A stretch of DNA of 64,000 bases from an uncultured bacterium. Lineage in GTDB: Bacteria > Patescibacteriota > Minisyncoccia > Phycocordibacterales > Zambryskibacteraceae. Positions 1,799 to 63,929 of the stretch are shown piece by piece. The stretch covers positions 67,388-131,387 of the forward strand of contig CAWBLF010000003.1 in the NCBI GenBank assembly GCA_963789635.1. Direction: 5' to 3'. A model generated the notes under the pieces. It had not been told where the DNA came from. It was given only the letters and a program-made list of their open reading frames with translations, and did no database searches. Numbering within the stretch: the first letter of the stretch is position 1; the number at the start of each line of letters is the position of its first letter. The position numbers and the translations under genes are program-made.

Positions 1799-1948
1799 GC
1801 TACCCCCCGTATTTTGGACGATGGTTTTGTTCGAATCAAAGAACTTATATACTATTATAATTATAGCATGTTTAATACCGATTTGTCAAATAAAAAAGAA
1901 AGGCCAAACACATATGTGCTTGGCCTATCCGTAACTCGAACTAACTTT

Positions 1949-15771: not shown

Positions 15772-16398
15772 TCAATCATTTATCCAACTTACCTTGGTTA
15801 GGGTGTTGACGGCATCGACTTCTTCCTGAGTCAGCCTCTCTTGTGGCTGAAAGGAATTAAGCAAATCACGATACTTCAGAGCCGAGGATTTCATTTCTGG
15901 TTTGCCGGTCACGGCCCTCATGAATGCCATGATGCTCGTCCTATGTGAGCTGATTAGTTTCAATCCGCTCGGATGTTTGTCATTCAAAAGAGTGGACACT
16001 TCGACCCACTCCAAAGGGCCGTGAAATTCATCTGGATCGTCTTTGTCGATCTTGGAGAAATTTCGTATCTCTCCCTTTTTGATCTCCATAACCACGGAGA
16101 TCTTGGCATGGTATGCGCCTGAATTTTTCTGATCGGAATCGAGCGTCGCGCTTGCCATGCTTCGGATTTCCACCTCGAACTTCATTTTGTCCTTTGCGAC
16201 CTCTTCTTCGGCGCCACGATACGCCGTTTGACTGACGGATTCACCGTGCTTGCCGGTTTCTGCCGGCAGACGAAGAGTCGTATATGCCCTGGGGGAACCG
16301 TAGTGCTTTGTGTAGGGCATAATGGCAAGAAGAATAGTGCCATCGCTCTCAAACTTCGGAATGATGATTTGTACCGTGTAGCTTACAATCGGTTTCAT
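15772..16398 (-). CDS. hypothetical protein
   Basis: 208-aa ORF; no confident family assignment (weak Nudix-like feel only). Confidence 0.35.
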   Translation of the reverse strand: MKPIVSYTVQIIIPKFESDGTILLAIMPYTKHYGSPRAYTTLRLPAETGKHGESVSQTAYRGAEEEVAKDKMKFEVEIRSMASATLDSDQKNSGAYHAKISVVMEIKKGEIRNFSKIDKDDPDEFHGPLEWVEVSTLLNDKHPSGLKLISSHRTSIMAFMRAVTGKPEMKSSALKYRDLLNSFQPQERLTQEEVDAVNTLTKVSWIND

Positions 16399-16524
16399 TT
16401 GCCCTCCTAAGGCAAAGAGATGAACGTTCTATGATGATTGCCATGAGCAATCATTCTCGCACTATTATATTATATACTTTAACTATTGTCAAATCATCGA
16501 AATGAAGCAATGTTTTTTACAATA

Positions 16525-36180: not shown

Positions 36181-37089
36181 ATGAGGTTTAACACCAGGTT
36201 TTACGGGGTTGCGATAATTCTGTCGGCAATGTTCGTGGCGTGTGATAGTGACCACGACGTGACGACTCCCAAGCAACCGGTAACAGTGACATTGTCACTG
36301 GCGGTGCACAACGACACGGTCGAGGCAGGAAAGACGGTGCAAGTGGGTATCGGCACAATGACAGTGACTCCGTCGGGAACGTCCACTGACATCGCGTGGT
36401 CAAGTACCAATGCGTCGGTAGCCACCGTTTCTCAAAACGGCATGGTCACCGGTGTGGCGACAGGTAGCGTCTTCATCATCGCAACTTCGGTTGCGGCTCC
36501 GGGCGTAAAGGATTCGGCATTGTTCACGGTGATGGAGCCGGTTTTGGCAACGATCACCATCAGTCCGCACAGCGCAAGCACGATTGCGGGAGGGCAGGTC
36601 GTCCTCACCGCAAACATCAAGGTGATAAACGGGCTATCCGACGGCATCGTGTGGTCAAGCTCGAACAACGCCGTGGCCACCGTTTCTCAAAACGGGGTTG
36701 TCAGCACCATGGCTGGCGGTTCGGTACTGATCACAGCTTCGTCGGTTGCTGTTCCGGCGGTGAAGGATACTTCGCGGATTACAGTGATACCGATTCCGCA
36801 AGTGCAATCCATCTCACCACCTTTTACCTCGGATACGATAAGGGTAGGACATACCCAGAACCTGAAGTTGTTTACCGTGGTCGCCGATTCTGGAGTGGTG
36901 ACGACTTATCATTGCCTCTCCACCAACCCTTTGGTGGCGACGATTGATCCGGTGACTTGTGTGCTCAAGGCATGGGCCACTAGCCCCTCGGGTGGGGCGT
37001 TGCCAATTCAGATCATCGCCACGACAGACGGTGTGAATCTGAAGTTGGGGCAACTCTCGGCGGGGATCAACGTGTATGTATTGCCATGA
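36181..37089 (+). CDS. lipoprotein with two Big_2 (bacterial Ig-like) domains
   Basis: Signal peptide plus lipobox (AMFVAC); repeated W(S)S(T/S)N..VATVSQNG(M/V)V...GSV.I.A(T/S)S modules; high GC. Confidence 0.6.
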   Translation: MRFNTRFYGVAIILSAMFVACDSDHDVTTPKQPVTVTLSLAVHNDTVEAGKTVQVGIGTMTVTPSGTSTDIAWSSTNASVATVSQNGMVTGVATGSVFIIATSVAAPGVKDSALFTVMEPVLATITISPHSASTIAGGQVVLTANIKVINGLSDGIVWSSSNNAVATVSQNGVVSTMAGGSVLITASSVAVPAVKDTSRITVIPIPQVQSISPPFTSDTIRVGHTQNLKLFTVVADSGVVTTYHCLSTNPLVATIDPVTCVLKAWATSPSGGALPIQIIATTDGVNLKLGQLSAGINVYVLP

Positions 37090-57924: not shown

Positions 57925-58082
57925 TCGATTTGGTATCCGAGGTTTAATCTTTTAACATTTCGAGGACTTAGCCTCTGGGTACCAAAAAGACGTCAAAGAA
58001 TTAGCAAATACTAGTAATCCTAAATAGTATTCGAGGTTTAGCCTTGAGAATTTGAAACTAAGGCTAAATCCTCGGATCCGAA
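57925..58082. promoter_or_regulatory. cluster of three CGAGG(T/A)(T/C)TTAGCCT repeats ending in a 14-bp-stem hairpin between the rnj 3' end and the MFS 5' region
   Basis: CGAGGTTTAGCCTT-N14-AAGGCTAAATCCTCG inverted repeat at 58032-58073 (likely rnj terminator); earlier direct copies at 57927 and 57961. Confidence 0.4.
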
Positions 58083-61902: not shown

Positions 61903-62136
61903 TTAACGCGCGAGAATGAGTGCAATAATTGCCGAAAGGGCGAAGAGAATAGAGACTACAATGGTCAGTCTAAACAATGTTTTTTCAGCCCCTCTTCGGA
62001 CGTATCCTCCCGTACTAAAAGAGTCAGCACCGAAGGCGCTACCCAGTCCAGCATCAGATCGTTGCAAGAGGACTCCTCCGACGAGGATAATCGAGAGCAA
62101 GATTTGAATATATGGGAGAATCGCAGAAATACTCAT
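61903..62136 (-). CDS. secG: preprotein translocase subunit SecG
   Basis: 77 aa, two TM; LLQRSDAGLGSAFGADSFSTGG...LFALSAIIALIL matches SecG. Confidence 0.7.
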   Translation of the reverse strand: MSISAILPYIQILLSIILVGGVLLQRSDAGLGSAFGADSFSTGGYVRRGAEKTLFRLTIVVSILFALSAIIALILAR

Positions 62137-62357
62137 TAGTTAGACACGATACACGAAACCTGCATTGAAGTAAAGAGGTGAAATGAAATTTGTGTTTTGA
62201 ATTAGGTTCAACTTTGATTTCCTAATGTTTGGTCACTGGATATTGGTTCCGAAACAAAACCTCAAAGTCGATGAAACACAGTAGCAACATACCCATATTT
62301 CTAGCTATTTTATGGCTATTTTAACGCTTCAAGATTTGCAACTTGTCAATTTTATGC

Positions 62358-62385
62358 TTGACATATATTGCATATATGCTATAAT
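62358..62385 (+). promoter_or_regulatory. consensus sigma-70-type promoter TTGACA-16-TATAAT driving the GC-rich cassette
   Basis: TTGACA (62358-62363), 16-nt spacer, TATAAT (62380-62385). Confidence 0.55.
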
Positions 62386-62471
62386 TGGAGGAGCAGTTTC
62401 ATTCGTTCTGTAACATCTCTATTTCACACATTGCTTGCTTTCTTTCAGGCCCAAAAGGGCGGAGGCTCCAA

Positions 62472-62627
62472 ATGGACAACGCGAAGATCGTCGCCGAAGC
62501 GAACCAGAAGTTCCTTGGCGAAATGAACATGCTTCGACAGGATGTCGAAAGCGCAAAGTTGGTCAACGGTTTCGCGTTCCAGTACATCCTCGACCTTCTC
62601 ACGATTCTCGAGCGCGTCGCGTTCTGA
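62472..62627 (+). CDS. small hypothetical protein (GC-rich cassette gene 1)
   Basis: Start MDNAKIV within listed ORF 62385-62627; high-GC codon usage unlike flanking genes. Confidence 0.3.
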   Translation: MDNAKIVAEANQKFLGEMNMLRQDVESAKLVNGFAFQYILDLLTILERVAF

Positions 62628-62665
62628 TCCTGAAGGAGCCGTTACAGTCGAACCCCAAGAGGGTC

Positions 62666-62872
62666 ATGGCTGCCACAGTCGAGGCGACTCGCGCCATCAG
62701 GGCTCTCCAGTCGGACCGTGAGGCCTTCTTCCTCAATAGGGAGAAGGAACACACGATGGCCAAGTTGGCGGTGGCACGTCGTCTTTTCACCCACTTCGTC
62801 AAGCTCCTCAATACCGAGCTTGCAGTGGCAAAGAGGGTGGTCAGGTTTGACATCCCCGACTTCGGTGATTGA
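62666..62872 (+). CDS. small hypothetical protein (GC-rich cassette gene 2)
   Basis: Start MAATVEAT within listed ORF 62435-62872; helical. Confidence 0.3.
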   Translation: MAATVEATRAIRALQSDREAFFLNREKEHTMAKLAVARRLFTHFVKLLNTELAVAKRVVRFDIPDFGD

Positions 62873-62899
62873 GGTTGAGCGCGGTAGCTCTTCGTCGAC

Positions 62900-63103
62900 A
62901 TGGCGCTTGAGCTAGCGGAGGCGACGAATGAATCCGTCTGGCGTTATGAGGAGGAGGCAAAGAACGTCTCTACGGCGTTCAACACCGTTCGCAGTCTGCA
63001 GGAAAGCTTTCTGCAGAAAAAGAAAGTGGTTGCGATACTCTACGACCGCGCTCGAGCCGTTCGCGACTATCCTGCAGTGTTCGGCGAGGACCCCGATCGG
63101 TGA
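62900..63103 (+). CDS. small hypothetical protein (GC-rich cassette gene 3)
   Basis: 67-aa ORF; 4-nt overlap with next ORF. Confidence 0.3.
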   Translation: MALELAEATNESVWRYEEEAKNVSTAFNTVRSLQESFLQKKKVVAILYDRARAVRDYPAVFGEDPDR

Positions 63104-63405
63104 TCTTCACCAACATCCGGCGGCTCGAGCATCGTATCCTCAAGGGGCATGTCTCTCTCGATACGTTGCGCAGTGAGTACATCGAGATCACCACGTCGCT
63201 CTGGAATCGAGAAGGAGACTCCACCGATGGCAGTGGCGAAGTCCCTGACGTCAAGCGCTTTCTTCTTGGCCTCGAAAACGAGGCCAACCTGACAGAGAAG
63301 AGGCCGACGGCGACTGACAGGATCAGCGAAGTCCGAAGCCAAGTGCCAGAACGGTCTCAAGACCTGCGTCAAAGCGGAGGCACAAGCCCGGGCTTTGCCG
63401 CGTAA
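63100..63405 (+). CDS. small hypothetical protein (GC-rich cassette gene 4)
   Basis: 101-aa ORF ending just before a strong terminator. Confidence 0.3.
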   Translation: MIFTNIRRLEHRILKGHVSLDTLRSEYIEITTSLWNREGDSTDGSGEVPDVKRFLLGLENEANLTEKRPTATDRISEVRSQVPERSQDLRQSGGTSPGFAA

Positions 63406-63437
63406 GCGGCGTGGGGCAGGTAGCAAACAGAAAAAGA

Positions 63438-63478
63438 GAACGCCGACGACTTCGTGTCGTCGGCGTTTTTTCTTTTTT
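63438..63478 (+). terminator. strong Rho-independent terminator
   Basis: GAACGCCGACGAC-ttcgt-GTCGTCGGCGTT followed by TTTTTCTTTTTT. Confidence 0.75.
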
Positions 63479-63489
63479 GGTCTTAAAAT

Positions 63490-63545
63490 CACTTGGACAT
63501 CCTTATTGTCCAAGTGATTGACATAGGGTGACCTATCAATATAAT
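63490..63545 (+). promoter_or_regulatory. groES promoter TTGACA-16-TATAAT preceded by a perfect inverted repeat CACTTGGACA-N7-TGTCCAAGTG (candidate heat-shock operator, HAIR-like rather than CIRCE)
   Basis: IR at 63490-63516; -35 at 63518-63523; -10 at 63540-63545; no CIRCE (TTAGCACTC-N9-GAGTGCTAA) present. Confidence 0.5.
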
Positions 63546-63581: not shown

Positions 63582-63929
63582 ATGAAAAAAATAAAAAATA
63601 AGACAGCCCAAAAAGCAACTCCTTCGAGAGTTAAACCCCTCGGTCTCACTCCTCTCGGCGACCGGGTCTTGGTCAAAGAAATCAAAACAAAGGAAGACAA
63701 GAAAACTGATTCGGGCATCTTTATACCGGCTTCGGTAAAGGCGGATGATGGCACTAAGAGAGGTATAGTCGTCGCAATCGGACGTGGTCGCATTGAAGAC
63801 GGCAAACTTATCCCGGTCAATCTAAAAGTCGGTGACGAAGTATTGTATCAGTGGGGCGAAAATCTTATTTTCAAAGATGAAGAATATACTTTGGTCAAAG
63901 AGTCGGAAATTTCTGCGTTAATCAACTGA
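63582..63929 (+). CDS. groES: co-chaperonin GroES
   Basis: LKPLGDRVLVKE...DSGIFIPASVKADDGTKRGIVVAIGRGR...KVGDEVLY signature; start at MKKIKNK inside the longer listed ORF. Confidence 0.8.
   Translation: MKKIKNKTAQKATPSRVKPLGLTPLGDRVLVKEIKTKEDKKTDSGIFIPASVKADDGTKRGIVVAIGRGRIEDGKLIPVNLKVGDEVLYQWGENLIFKDEEYTLVKESEISALIN

What the first reader, a model, noticed from the sequence alone, without database searches (positions are those of the whole stretch)
62150..63480. GC-rich cassette of four or five small ORFs with a consensus promoter and a strong terminator, inserted between secG and groES
The segment's GC content and codon usage differ from all neighbouring genes. It starts with a textbook TTGACA-16-TATAAT promoter and ends with a 13-bp-stem terminator. 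It encodes only small helical proteins of 52 to 101 aa with overlapping start and stop codons. This is typical of compact mobile or phage-derived modules such as toxin-antitoxin, anti-defence or regulatory cassettes. The secG-groES interval is otherwise a conserved core region.
Basis: seen in the sequence. Interest (0 to 1): 0.55.

Follow-up and report, generated by a model that had tools for sequence, protein, structure and literature searches.

The report
Variable GC-rich gene slot before groES
The GC-rich stretch is real. It is this genome's version of a strongly promoted, fast-changing gene slot that related Paceibacteria (candidate-phyla bacteria) also carry between secG and groES, swapped in by recombination; nothing marks it as a phage, toxin-antitoxin or defence insertion.

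Summary
Bases 62472-63405 are 57% GC in a 42.7% GC window. They follow a perfect TTGACA-16-TATAAT promoter and end at a strong terminator. Four short ORFs (51, 68, 67 and 101 aa) lie there, and codon-position GC tracks each frame.

In related Paceibacteria the secG-groES interval is a conserved slot. It has the same consensus promoter, a 42-87 nt leader, a GGAGG ribosome-binding site and a terminator. It usually carries one fast-evolving, all-helical ~200 aa orphan protein, which I call "X". X has the same non-host codon usage: GC3 0.63-0.84, and AAA 0 against AAG 87.

One relative has an empty site. The nearest relative (flanks ~90% identical) has an intact X. Its similarity to the window stops abruptly at 62157 and returns only at the terminator. 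groES is also unusually diverged, which points to a recombinational swap of at least 1.8 kb.

The window's ORFs have X-like codon usage (r=0.79). ORFs 1-3 add up to X's length. Homology to X could not be shown.

I found no hit to toxin-antitoxin, defence, phage, plasmid or RNA families, and no flanking repeats. Function is unknown, and the codon anomaly is unexplained.

The parts
61903..62136 (-). secG, the conserved left flank. Identity to relative L012 is 95-99% here and ends abruptly at 62157.
62157..62357 (.). AT-rich spacer between secG and the promoter. The left end of the non-alignable (swapped) tract lies at about 62157.
62358..62385 (+). Consensus sigma-70 promoter TTGACA-16-TATAAT with an extended -10 TG. 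It is conserved in position and form in all related slots.
62386..62471 (+). 86-nt pyrimidine-rich leader with GGAGG at 62461-62465. It is partly alignable to the leaders of L007 and L012. A short hairpin is predicted to pair the ribosome-binding site, but this is not statistically supported.
62472..62627 (+). o1, 51 aa, helical, GC3 0.77. It sits exactly where the X gene starts in relatives. It was called as a gene in the source record and is a singleton.
62666..62872 (+). o2, 68 aa, GC3 0.72, one base back (-1) from the o1 frame. Its ribosome-binding site is weak and too close (AGAGGG, 2-3 nt from the ATG).
62870..62887 (+). Cluster of three in-frame stops (TGA, TGA, TAG) separating o2 and o3, which share one frame. 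The coding-phase signal, measured in 90-nt windows too wide to resolve this 27-nt gap, stays in that frame on both sides.
62900..63103 (+). o3, 67 aa, GC3 0.65, with no ribosome-binding site nearby.
63100..63405 (+). o4, 101 aa, GTG start overlapping the o3 stop (GTGA), GC3 0.68. It is an orphan (singleton). The AlphaFold model is helical but of low confidence.
63435..63481 (+). Intrinsic terminator. It is homologous to the terminators of L012 and L007, with stem positions that differ on both arms in L007 yet still pair. The right end of the non-alignable tract lies at about 63441.
63487..63545 (+). Perfect 13-bp inverted repeat (63487-63519), shared in part with L007, abutting the consensus promoter of groES (63518-63545).
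63582..63929 (+). groES. It is only 83% identical in protein to L012, whereas the substrate-binding protein is 96% identical. It probably lies inside the same recombination tract.

Best explanation
The segment is this genome's copy of a conserved expression slot between secG and groES in Paceibacteria. In what follows, SBP is the neighbouring peptide substrate-binding protein gene, used as the yardstick of relatedness. GC3 is the G+C fraction at third codon positions. X is the slot's usual orphan protein.

**Shown.**
- A consensus promoter, a leader with a strong ribosome-binding site and an intrinsic terminator frame the GC-rich coding part.
- The same frame exists in relatives. There it normally holds one fast-evolving, all-helical ~180-235 aa orphan protein (X) with extreme non-host codon usage.
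- The content differs completely from that of the nearest relative, while secG next to it is 95-99% identical.

**Inferred.**
- The content, together with groES, was exchanged by homologous recombination with a divergent lineage.
- The unit is transcribed very strongly.
- o1 is translated from the X start site.
- o1-o3 (186 aa in all) are most likely a split or decaying, highly diverged X-type allele, and o4 is an extra downstream ORF coupled through the GTGA overlap.
- X itself is a dispensable, abundant cytoplasmic helical-bundle protein under rapid turnover. Its cellular role is not known.
For: **The slot is conserved.** Relatives L001, L004, L005, L007, L012, L013, L014, L016, L017 and L018 all place a unit between secG and groES. 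Each has a perfect or near-perfect TTGACA-16-TATAAT promoter; those whose leader was examined (L017 and L018 were not) have a 42-87 nt leader and, except L001, a GGAGG-type ribosome-binding site. Terminator hairpins were read by eye in eight of them.

**X is one family.**
- X of L012 against X of L007 gives E 5e-46 at 40% identity, where SBP is ~80% identical.
- P0002 finds P0123-125 by phmmer (E 2e-10 to 1.5e-4).
- P0123 is again located secG|X|groES.
- The AlphaFold model has pLDDT 90 and six helices.

**X is compositionally anomalous.**
- GC3 is 0.74-0.84 in eight X genes and 0.63 in L016, in loci of 41-44% GC. In seven of the eight loci with a full-length X gene, X is the only long ORF that passes the GC3 screen (L016's X falls just below the threshold).
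- Third-position A is 5.9%; AAA 0 against AAG 87.
- groEL of the same genomes prefers A/T-ending codons.
- The enrichment is mostly confined to the coding sequence.

**The window's cassette shares this usage.** Relative synonymous codon usage correlates r=0.79 with X and -0.26 with the window's own genes.

**Evidence for a swap.**
- Identity to L012 is 95-99% up to 62157. It is then unalignable until the terminator at 63441.
- The promoter, leader and terminator can still be aligned by hand or with MAFFT.
- groES is 83% identical to both L012 and L007, while SBP is 96% and 80%.

**Dispensability.** L015 is an empty site in which the promoter drives groES directly. L001 and L005 carry short remnants.

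**Weak collinearity with X.** Profile-profile comparison places o1 residues 18-35 on profile positions 19-36, o2 5-26 on 75-96, and o3 23-32 on 142-151. The family's aromatic anchors F24 and F80 are matched. o1+o2+o3 is 186 aa against 181-235 aa for X.
Against: **Homology to X is not demonstrated.**
- The profile comparisons give P values of 0.07, 0.08, 0.33 and 0.42.
- The fused o1-o3 sequence scores 6.5 bits (p=0.008 against shuffles), but the reversed sequence scores 8.4 and permuted orders score 2.9-5.7. The signal cannot be told apart from generic helical similarity.

**The ORF layout could be a real operon.**
- Frame changes coincide exactly with ORF ends.
- o3 and o4 overlap by GTGA, as coupled genes do.
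- o1 has a good ribosome-binding site.

**Other limits.**
- Which lineage (the window's or L012's) is the recombinant is inferred only from parsimony.
- The right end of the tract lies beyond the window.
- No expression data exist.
- One distant X homologue (P0125) sits upstream of rpsS, so the family is not strictly tied to this slot.
Confidence: 0.6

Rival explanations
1. It is a genuine operon of four unrelated small helical proteins (for example a toxin-antitoxin, anti-defence or regulatory module) that replaced X in the slot after horizontal acquisition.
For: - Each ORF shows a coding-type GC phase.
- o1 has a GGAGG ribosome-binding site, and o3/o4 overlap by GTGA.
- There is no demonstrable homology to X.
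- The content is absent from the nearest relative.
- A 10-bp palindrome, GCATATATGC, lies in the promoter spacer.
Against: - There is no hit in Pfam, PHROGs, NCBIfam or PADLOC.
- There is no DNA or protein similarity to 50,697 phage records. There is no DNA similarity to 72,556 plasmid records. o4 has no relative in IMG/VR viral contigs.
- o1 and o4 are singletons among about 15 billion proteins.
- o3 has no ribosome-binding site, and o2 has a poorly spaced one.
- Codon usage matches the slot family rather than being arbitrarily foreign.
- There are no repeats and no recombinase.
Confidence: 0.27
2. It is a GC-rich structured non-coding RNA, and its ORFs are chance products of high GC.
For: - A GC-rich island in an AT-rich genome, with its own strong promoter and terminator, is typical of RNA genes.
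- Long antisense ORFs also occur.
Against: - No Rfam family matches, even at E up to 10, apart from the terminator hairpin.
- There is a clear three-base periodicity with GC3 > GC1 > GC2 that switches frame at the ORF ends.
- Relatives encode a protein family that folds with pLDDT 90.
Confidence: 0.03
3. It is an assembly artefact: either a chimeric join, or indel errors that break one gene.
For: - The sequence comes from a metagenome-assembled genome.
- The ORFs tile the region with -1 frame steps.
Against: - Both junctions lie in sequence homologous to relatives (promoter, leader, terminator).
- Other genes in the 64-kb window are long and unbroken.
- Three stops within six codons are not a single indel error.
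Confidence: 0.05

Closest known systems
Flexible genomic islets or hotspots between conserved core genes, exchanged by homologous recombination in the flanks
   Same: - Fixed position between core genes (secG and groES).
- Content differs between close relatives.
- Sharp identity breakpoint at 62157.
- A neighbouring core gene (groES) is carried along.
- An empty site exists.
   Different: - The regulatory frame (promoter, leader, ribosome-binding site, terminator) is conserved around the variable coding part.
- The content is usually one family of orphan proteins with a maintained non-host codon usage, not assorted accessory genes.
Integron gene cassettes, as a working analogy only
   Same: A fixed outward promoter next to a variable, compact coding content.
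   Different: - There is no integrase.
- No attI/attC-like recombination sites were seen.
- The terminator hairpin is conserved rather than specific to each cassette.
- The exchange tract includes groES.
Type II toxin-antitoxin or anti-defence small-gene modules
   Same: - Small adjacent ORFs.
- One start/stop overlap.
- Its own promoter, with a palindrome in the spacer.
   Different: - No family match in Pfam, NCBIfam or PADLOC.
- No phage or plasmid relatives.
- Four ORFs rather than a pair.
- The same locus in relatives holds a single 200-aa helical protein.
Lineage-specific orphan genes of candidate-phyla-radiation bacteria
   Same: - No homologues outside a narrow clade.
- No known domain or fold.
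   Different: Syntenic conservation over deep divergence is combined with GC3 of 0.63-0.84 and complete avoidance of AAA in 41-44% GC genomes. Ordinary orphans do not show this.

Membership tests
Slot family X (Paceibacteria secG-groES helical orphan; defined here) | Located between secG and groES on the groES strand, with its own consensus promoter, leader, ribosome-binding site and terminator | tested here: met
Slot family X (Paceibacteria secG-groES helical orphan; defined here) | GC3-rich codon usage poor in third-position A, unlike the host genome | tested here: met
   GC3 is 0.65-0.77. Codon usage correlates r=0.79 with X genes. AAA 2 against AAG 12.
Slot family X (Paceibacteria secG-groES helical orphan; defined here) | Detectable sequence homology to the family profile | tested here: inconclusive
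   Profile comparison gives P 0.07-0.42. The fused o1-o3 scores 6.5 bits but the reversed sequence scores 8.4. Placement is collinear.
Slot family X (Paceibacteria secG-groES helical orphan; defined here) | A single uninterrupted ORF of about 180-235 aa | tested here: not met
   There are four ORFs of 51-101 aa, with one -1 frame step, a three-stop cluster and a second -1 step.
Type II toxin-antitoxin module | Recognisable toxin and antitoxin domains in adjacent genes | tested here: not met
   Pfam, NCBIfam and PADLOC give no significant hit.
Anti-phage defence or anti-defence cassette | Match to known defence models, or relatives in phages | tested here: not met
   PADLOC and PHROGs give nothing. 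No blastn or tblastn match in phages. No relatives of o4 in IMG/VR.
Mobile element, prophage remnant or integron cassette | Recombinase or transposase, terminal or direct repeats, and an empty site with target duplication in relatives | tested here: not met
   There is no recombinase in or next to the segment. Only chance-level repeats are present. Relatives are occupied by a syntenic unit. One empty site exists (L015) but without repeat scars.
Known structured RNA families (Rfam 15) | Covariance-model match | tested here: not met

The most novel reading that the evidence does not exclude
The secG-groES slot may be a dedicated, very strongly expressed site for a hypervariable protein family. 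On this reading the coding sequence is actively kept compositionally separate from the AT-rich host: AAA 0 of 87 lysine codons and third-position A 6%, the opposite of groEL's usage. One possible purpose is an mRNA that escapes ribonucleases or toxins specific for A-rich codons, or that is translated under stress next to the chaperonin operon. Alleles, including split versions such as this window's four ORFs, would be exchanged by recombination, like a contingency or antigen-type locus in an episymbiotic candidate-phyla bacterium.
Probability: 0.15. Interest if true: 0.75.

Novelty: new variant of a known kind. Interest (0 to 1): 0.48.

Why it matters
The result shows that a foreign-looking GC island is not evidence of a mobile insertion here, because the anomaly belongs to a conserved slot.

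The slot poses a concrete puzzle for candidate-phyla-radiation genomics. A syntenic, dispensable, rapidly diverging gene sits under one of the strongest promoters of the genome. It has kept codon usage opposite to that of the host's highly expressed genes across deep divergence.

Explaining this could reveal a new regulatory or conflict-related function, or a local evolutionary force in reduced genomes. Candidate causes are selection on the mRNA, biased gene conversion at a recombination hotspot, or repeated exchange.

Tried and rejected
**RNA gene.** Rfam at gathering and at permissive thresholds found only tRNAs elsewhere, plus sub-threshold hits on the terminator. I rejected an RNA gene because of the codon periodicity.

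**Programmed -1 frameshifting.**
- The only slippery-like site (CAG AAA AAG at 63014) lies where the phase signal stays in the o3 frame. Shifting there gives an Arg/Ser-rich junk reading.
- The weak Rfam DnaX hit is the terminator.

**Dual coding or an antisense gene.** Long antisense ORFs appear in some relatives but are not conserved. They follow automatically from avoidance of third-position A.

**Translational selection as the cause of high GC3.** Rejected, because groEL and groES in the same genomes prefer A/T-ending codons.

**Internal paralogy of o1-o4.** None was found.

**Flanking direct repeats.** Only chance-level repeats are present, plus the similarity of the two -35 regions.

**Exact look-ups.** Look-ups of o4, GroES and SecG in the contig index found nothing on record.

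**Leader structure.** The leaders do not fold better than shuffled sequences.

**Literature.** Two searches gave nothing relevant.

Full report
**1. The observation**

The window is 42.7% GC. The stretch 62472-63405 is 57.0% GC, the highest of all 932-bp windows (mean 42.7%, sd 4.0). The profiles show the same rise.

A 12-of-12 sigma-70 consensus, TTGACA-16-TATAAT, lies at 62358-62385 and has an extended -10 TG. A 12-16 bp stem followed by a T run lies at 63435-63471. Only four perfect consensus promoters occur in 64 kb, where 0.04 are expected. Two of them bracket this segment; the second (63518-63545) belongs to groES.

Four plus-strand ORFs fit the codon-phase signal:

| ORF | Coordinates | Length | Note |
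|---|---|---|---|
| o1 | 62472-62627 | 51 aa | GGAGG 6 nt upstream |
| o2 | 62666-62872 | 68 aa | weak, close ribosome-binding site |
| o3 | 62900-63103 | 67 aa | no ribosome-binding site |
| o4 | 63100-63405 | 101 aa | GTG start, GTGA overlap with o3 |

Their GC1/GC2/GC3 values are 0.58-0.65 / 0.25-0.46 / 0.65-0.77. The 54 long ORFs of the window have a mean GC3 of 0.425 (sd 0.08, max 0.65). A sliding phase score puts the coding frame as follows:
- frame 0 from about 62460 to 62620;
- frame 2 from about 62625 to 63070. The signal holds on both sides of a cluster of three stops at 62870-62885, although the 90-nt windows cannot resolve the 27-nt gap itself;
- frame 1 from about 63100 to 63335.

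So the description is correct.

**2. Not an RNA, and not a known protein module**

- Rfam finds nothing here except sub-threshold hits on the terminator hairpin.
- Pfam, PHROGs, NCBIfam and PADLOC give no significant hit for any ORF on either strand.
- o4 has no relative among 5.8 billion protein clusters. o1 and o4 are singletons from one 269-kb contig among about 15 billion proteins.
- blastn against phage and plasmid collections, tblastn against phages, and an IMG/VR scan with o4 all found nothing.
- No meaningful direct repeats flank the segment.
- The AlphaFold model of o4 alone is helical but of low confidence (pLDDT 58).

**3. The surroundings in relatives**

I used the neighbouring peptide-binding protein (SBP) as a handle to collect related loci from Paceibacteria/Parcubacteria genomes and metagenomes. 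The gene order RNase J - SBP - secG | slot | groES - groEL - LemA - HtpX is conserved.

In L001, L004 (identical to L009 and L010), L005, L007, L012, L013, L014, L016, L017 and L018, the secG-groES interval holds a unit on the groES strand. Its parts are:
- a perfect or near-perfect TTGACA-16-TATAAT promoter with a TG extension;
- a 42-87 nt leader, where it was examined (not in L017 or L018);
- a GGAGG-type ribosome-binding site (absent in L001);
- a GC-rich ORF;
- an intrinsic terminator, read by eye in eight of the loci;
- then groES's own promoter.

L015 has only 102 bp there, and the consensus promoter drives groES directly. This is an empty site. A more distant genome (L011, 31% GC) lacks the slot.

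**4. The usual occupant, family X**

The slot ORFs are mostly 181-235 aa.
- X of L012 and X of L007 align at 40% identity (E 5e-46), although their SBPs are about 80% identical.
- The L004 protein (P0002) has no relatives by word-based search. A full phmmer scan of 1.84 billion representatives found three (P0123-P0125, E 2e-10 to 1.5e-4).
- P0123 again lies secG|X|groES (L018). P0125 lies upstream of rpsS on a short contig.
- An 11-sequence alignment shows shared anchors, including a G-[FY] motif near residue 24, G51, F80 and an A/S-P motif near residue 100.
- AlphaFold on four sequences gives pLDDT 90 and six helices.
- Foldseek finds no similar solved or viral structure (best E 0.4-0.9).
- Pfam and PDB sequence profiles give only generic helical-bundle noise.

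X is therefore a fast-evolving, clade-restricted helical protein of unknown function. It is dispensable: L015 is empty, and L001 and L005 carry short forms.

**5. The compositional anomaly belongs to the slot**

- X genes have GC3 of 0.74-0.84 (0.63 in L016) in loci of 41-44% GC. In seven of the eight loci with a full-length X gene, X is the only long ORF that passes the GC3 screen.
- Over six X genes the third-position bases are A 5.9%, T 15.5%, C 41% and G 37%.
- Lysine is AAA 0 against AAG 87 (Fisher test against GAA/GAG, p=2.5e-6).
- groEL of the same genomes uses AAA 167 / AAG 118 and ATT 147 / ATC 35. This is not the host's codon preference for highly expressed genes.
- The enrichment is largely confined to the coding part: leaders are 0.32-0.51 GC and coding sequences 0.57-0.63.
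- The window's four ORFs share this usage. Their relative synonymous codon usage correlates r=0.79 with X and -0.26 with the window's own genes.

The cause of the bias remains unexplained.

**6. What happened in this genome**

L012 is the nearest relative: SBP is 96% identical and the flanks are about 90% identical in DNA.
- Its identity to the window is 95-99% through secG and stops abruptly at 62157.
- Nothing aligns until the terminator at 63441.
- The promoter, leader and terminator can still be aligned with L012 and L007. In L007 the terminator stem differs on both arms and still pairs.
- L012 carries an intact 215-aa X related to that of L007.
- The window's GroES is only 83% identical to both L012's and L007's, although SBP is 96% and 80%.

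The simplest reading is a homologous-recombination tract of at least 1.8 kb. It would run from about 62157 past groES and bring in a divergent slot allele. It was probably imported into the window's lineage, because L012 and L007 share the X type. Direction and donor are inferred, not shown.

**7. Are the four ORFs a broken X?**

*For:*
- o1 starts exactly at the X start position.
- o1+o2+o3 is 186 aa, which is X-sized.
- Profile comparison places o1, o2 and o3 collinearly on the family profile, with the F24 and F80 anchors matched.
- o2 and o3 share a frame across a stop cluster.
- o2 and o3 lack good ribosome-binding sites.
- Codon usage is X-like but less extreme.

*Against:*
- No comparison is significant (P 0.07-0.42).
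- The fused sequence beats shuffles (p=0.008), but its reverse scores higher and permuted orders score nearly the same.
- The frame steps coincide exactly with ORF ends, and o3/o4 show a coupling-type overlap. That pattern fits a real small-gene operon.

I rate the split or decaying X-type allele plus o4 somewhat above a genuinely new four-gene operon. I cannot decide between them.

**8. How it most likely works**

*Shown:*
- promoter, leader, ribosome-binding site, coding phase and terminator;
- conservation of the slot;
- replacement of the content.

*Inferred:*
- very strong constitutive transcription of a ~1.08-kb RNA that ends before groES;
- translation at least of o1, and coupled translation of o4;
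- products that are small cytoplasmic helical proteins (no signal peptides seen).

For X, I commit to an abundant, non-essential helical-bundle protein whose gene turns over by rapid divergence and recombinational exchange. A stress-linked role is suggested only by its neighbours (groESL, LemA, HtpX). A predicted short hairpin pairs the ribosome-binding site in the window, L007 and L012, but it has no statistical support.

**9. Verdict**

- The mobile, toxin-antitoxin or anti-defence interpretation is not supported.
- The segment is a variant of a conserved hypervariable slot.
- Novelty: a new variant of a known kind, namely a recombination-exchanged flexible islet, with an unexplained and maintained codon anomaly.
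- Interest is moderate.

Noticed in passing
window 63487-63519 (also L007 3565-3595, minus strand): A perfect 13-bp inverted repeat, AATCACTTGGACA-N7-TGTCCAAGTGATT, abuts the -35 box of the groES promoter. Its core, ACTTGGACA...TGTCCAAGT, is conserved in L007 and absent in L012. It looks like an operator. It is neither CIRCE nor an exact HAIR element (comparison from memory).
   Followed up: partly
L012 1479-2261 (minus strand): A gene with an HUH motif (HYHILL) and a weak hit to REP-associated tyrosine transposase (E 2e-4) is flanked by identical hairpins, CGTGTCAACCTCAGAGGTTGACACG. It is inserted between the -35 and -10 boxes of the groES promoter. The right-end hairpin supplies a new TTGACA 18 nt from TACAAT.
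   Followed up: partly
window 58029-58077 and 57950-57975; L007 1389-1437 and 4440-4540: A ~49-bp hairpin element, GAGGTTTAGCC...GGCTAAATCCTC, is 98% identical between the window (RNase J-MFS spacer) and a different place in L007 (downstream of groEL). Related copies lie in L007's secG-promoter spacer. It looks like a small REP- or MITE-like repeat.
   Followed up: partly
six X genes in L004, L007, L012, L013, L014, L016: The lysine codon AAA is completely absent (0 against 87 AAG), and ATA, TTA, CTA, ACA and GTA are nearly absent. groEL in the same genomes prefers A/T-ending codons. No explanation was found.
   Followed up: partly
window 36181-37089 (+): This is the only other GC-rich spot of the window (55% GC, GC3 0.65). 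It is a 302-aa protein with a lipoprotein-like N-terminus and repeated Ig-like segments. It is unrelated to the finding.
   Followed up: no
L017 26-655 and 802-1509 (minus strand): Two X-type genes (235 and 209 aa) lie in tandem next to secG. This shows that the slot can hold more than one gene.
   Followed up: partly
L019 361-957: The distant X homologue P0125 lies upstream of ribosomal protein S19, not next to groES. It again has its own promoter-like site and leader.
   Followed up: partly
L003 3088-3774 (+): In a 51% GC relative, the secG-groES interval holds a 228-aa ORF on the secG strand that looks protein-like and is unrelated to X. This is another type of slot content.
   Followed up: no
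window 1860-1889 (-) and 16464-16492 (-): These are the only other perfect consensus promoters in the window. They lie upstream of a 402-aa membrane-like ORF (590-1798) and a 208-aa ORF (15772-16398). Both ORFs have a somewhat raised GC3 (0.56).
   Followed up: no
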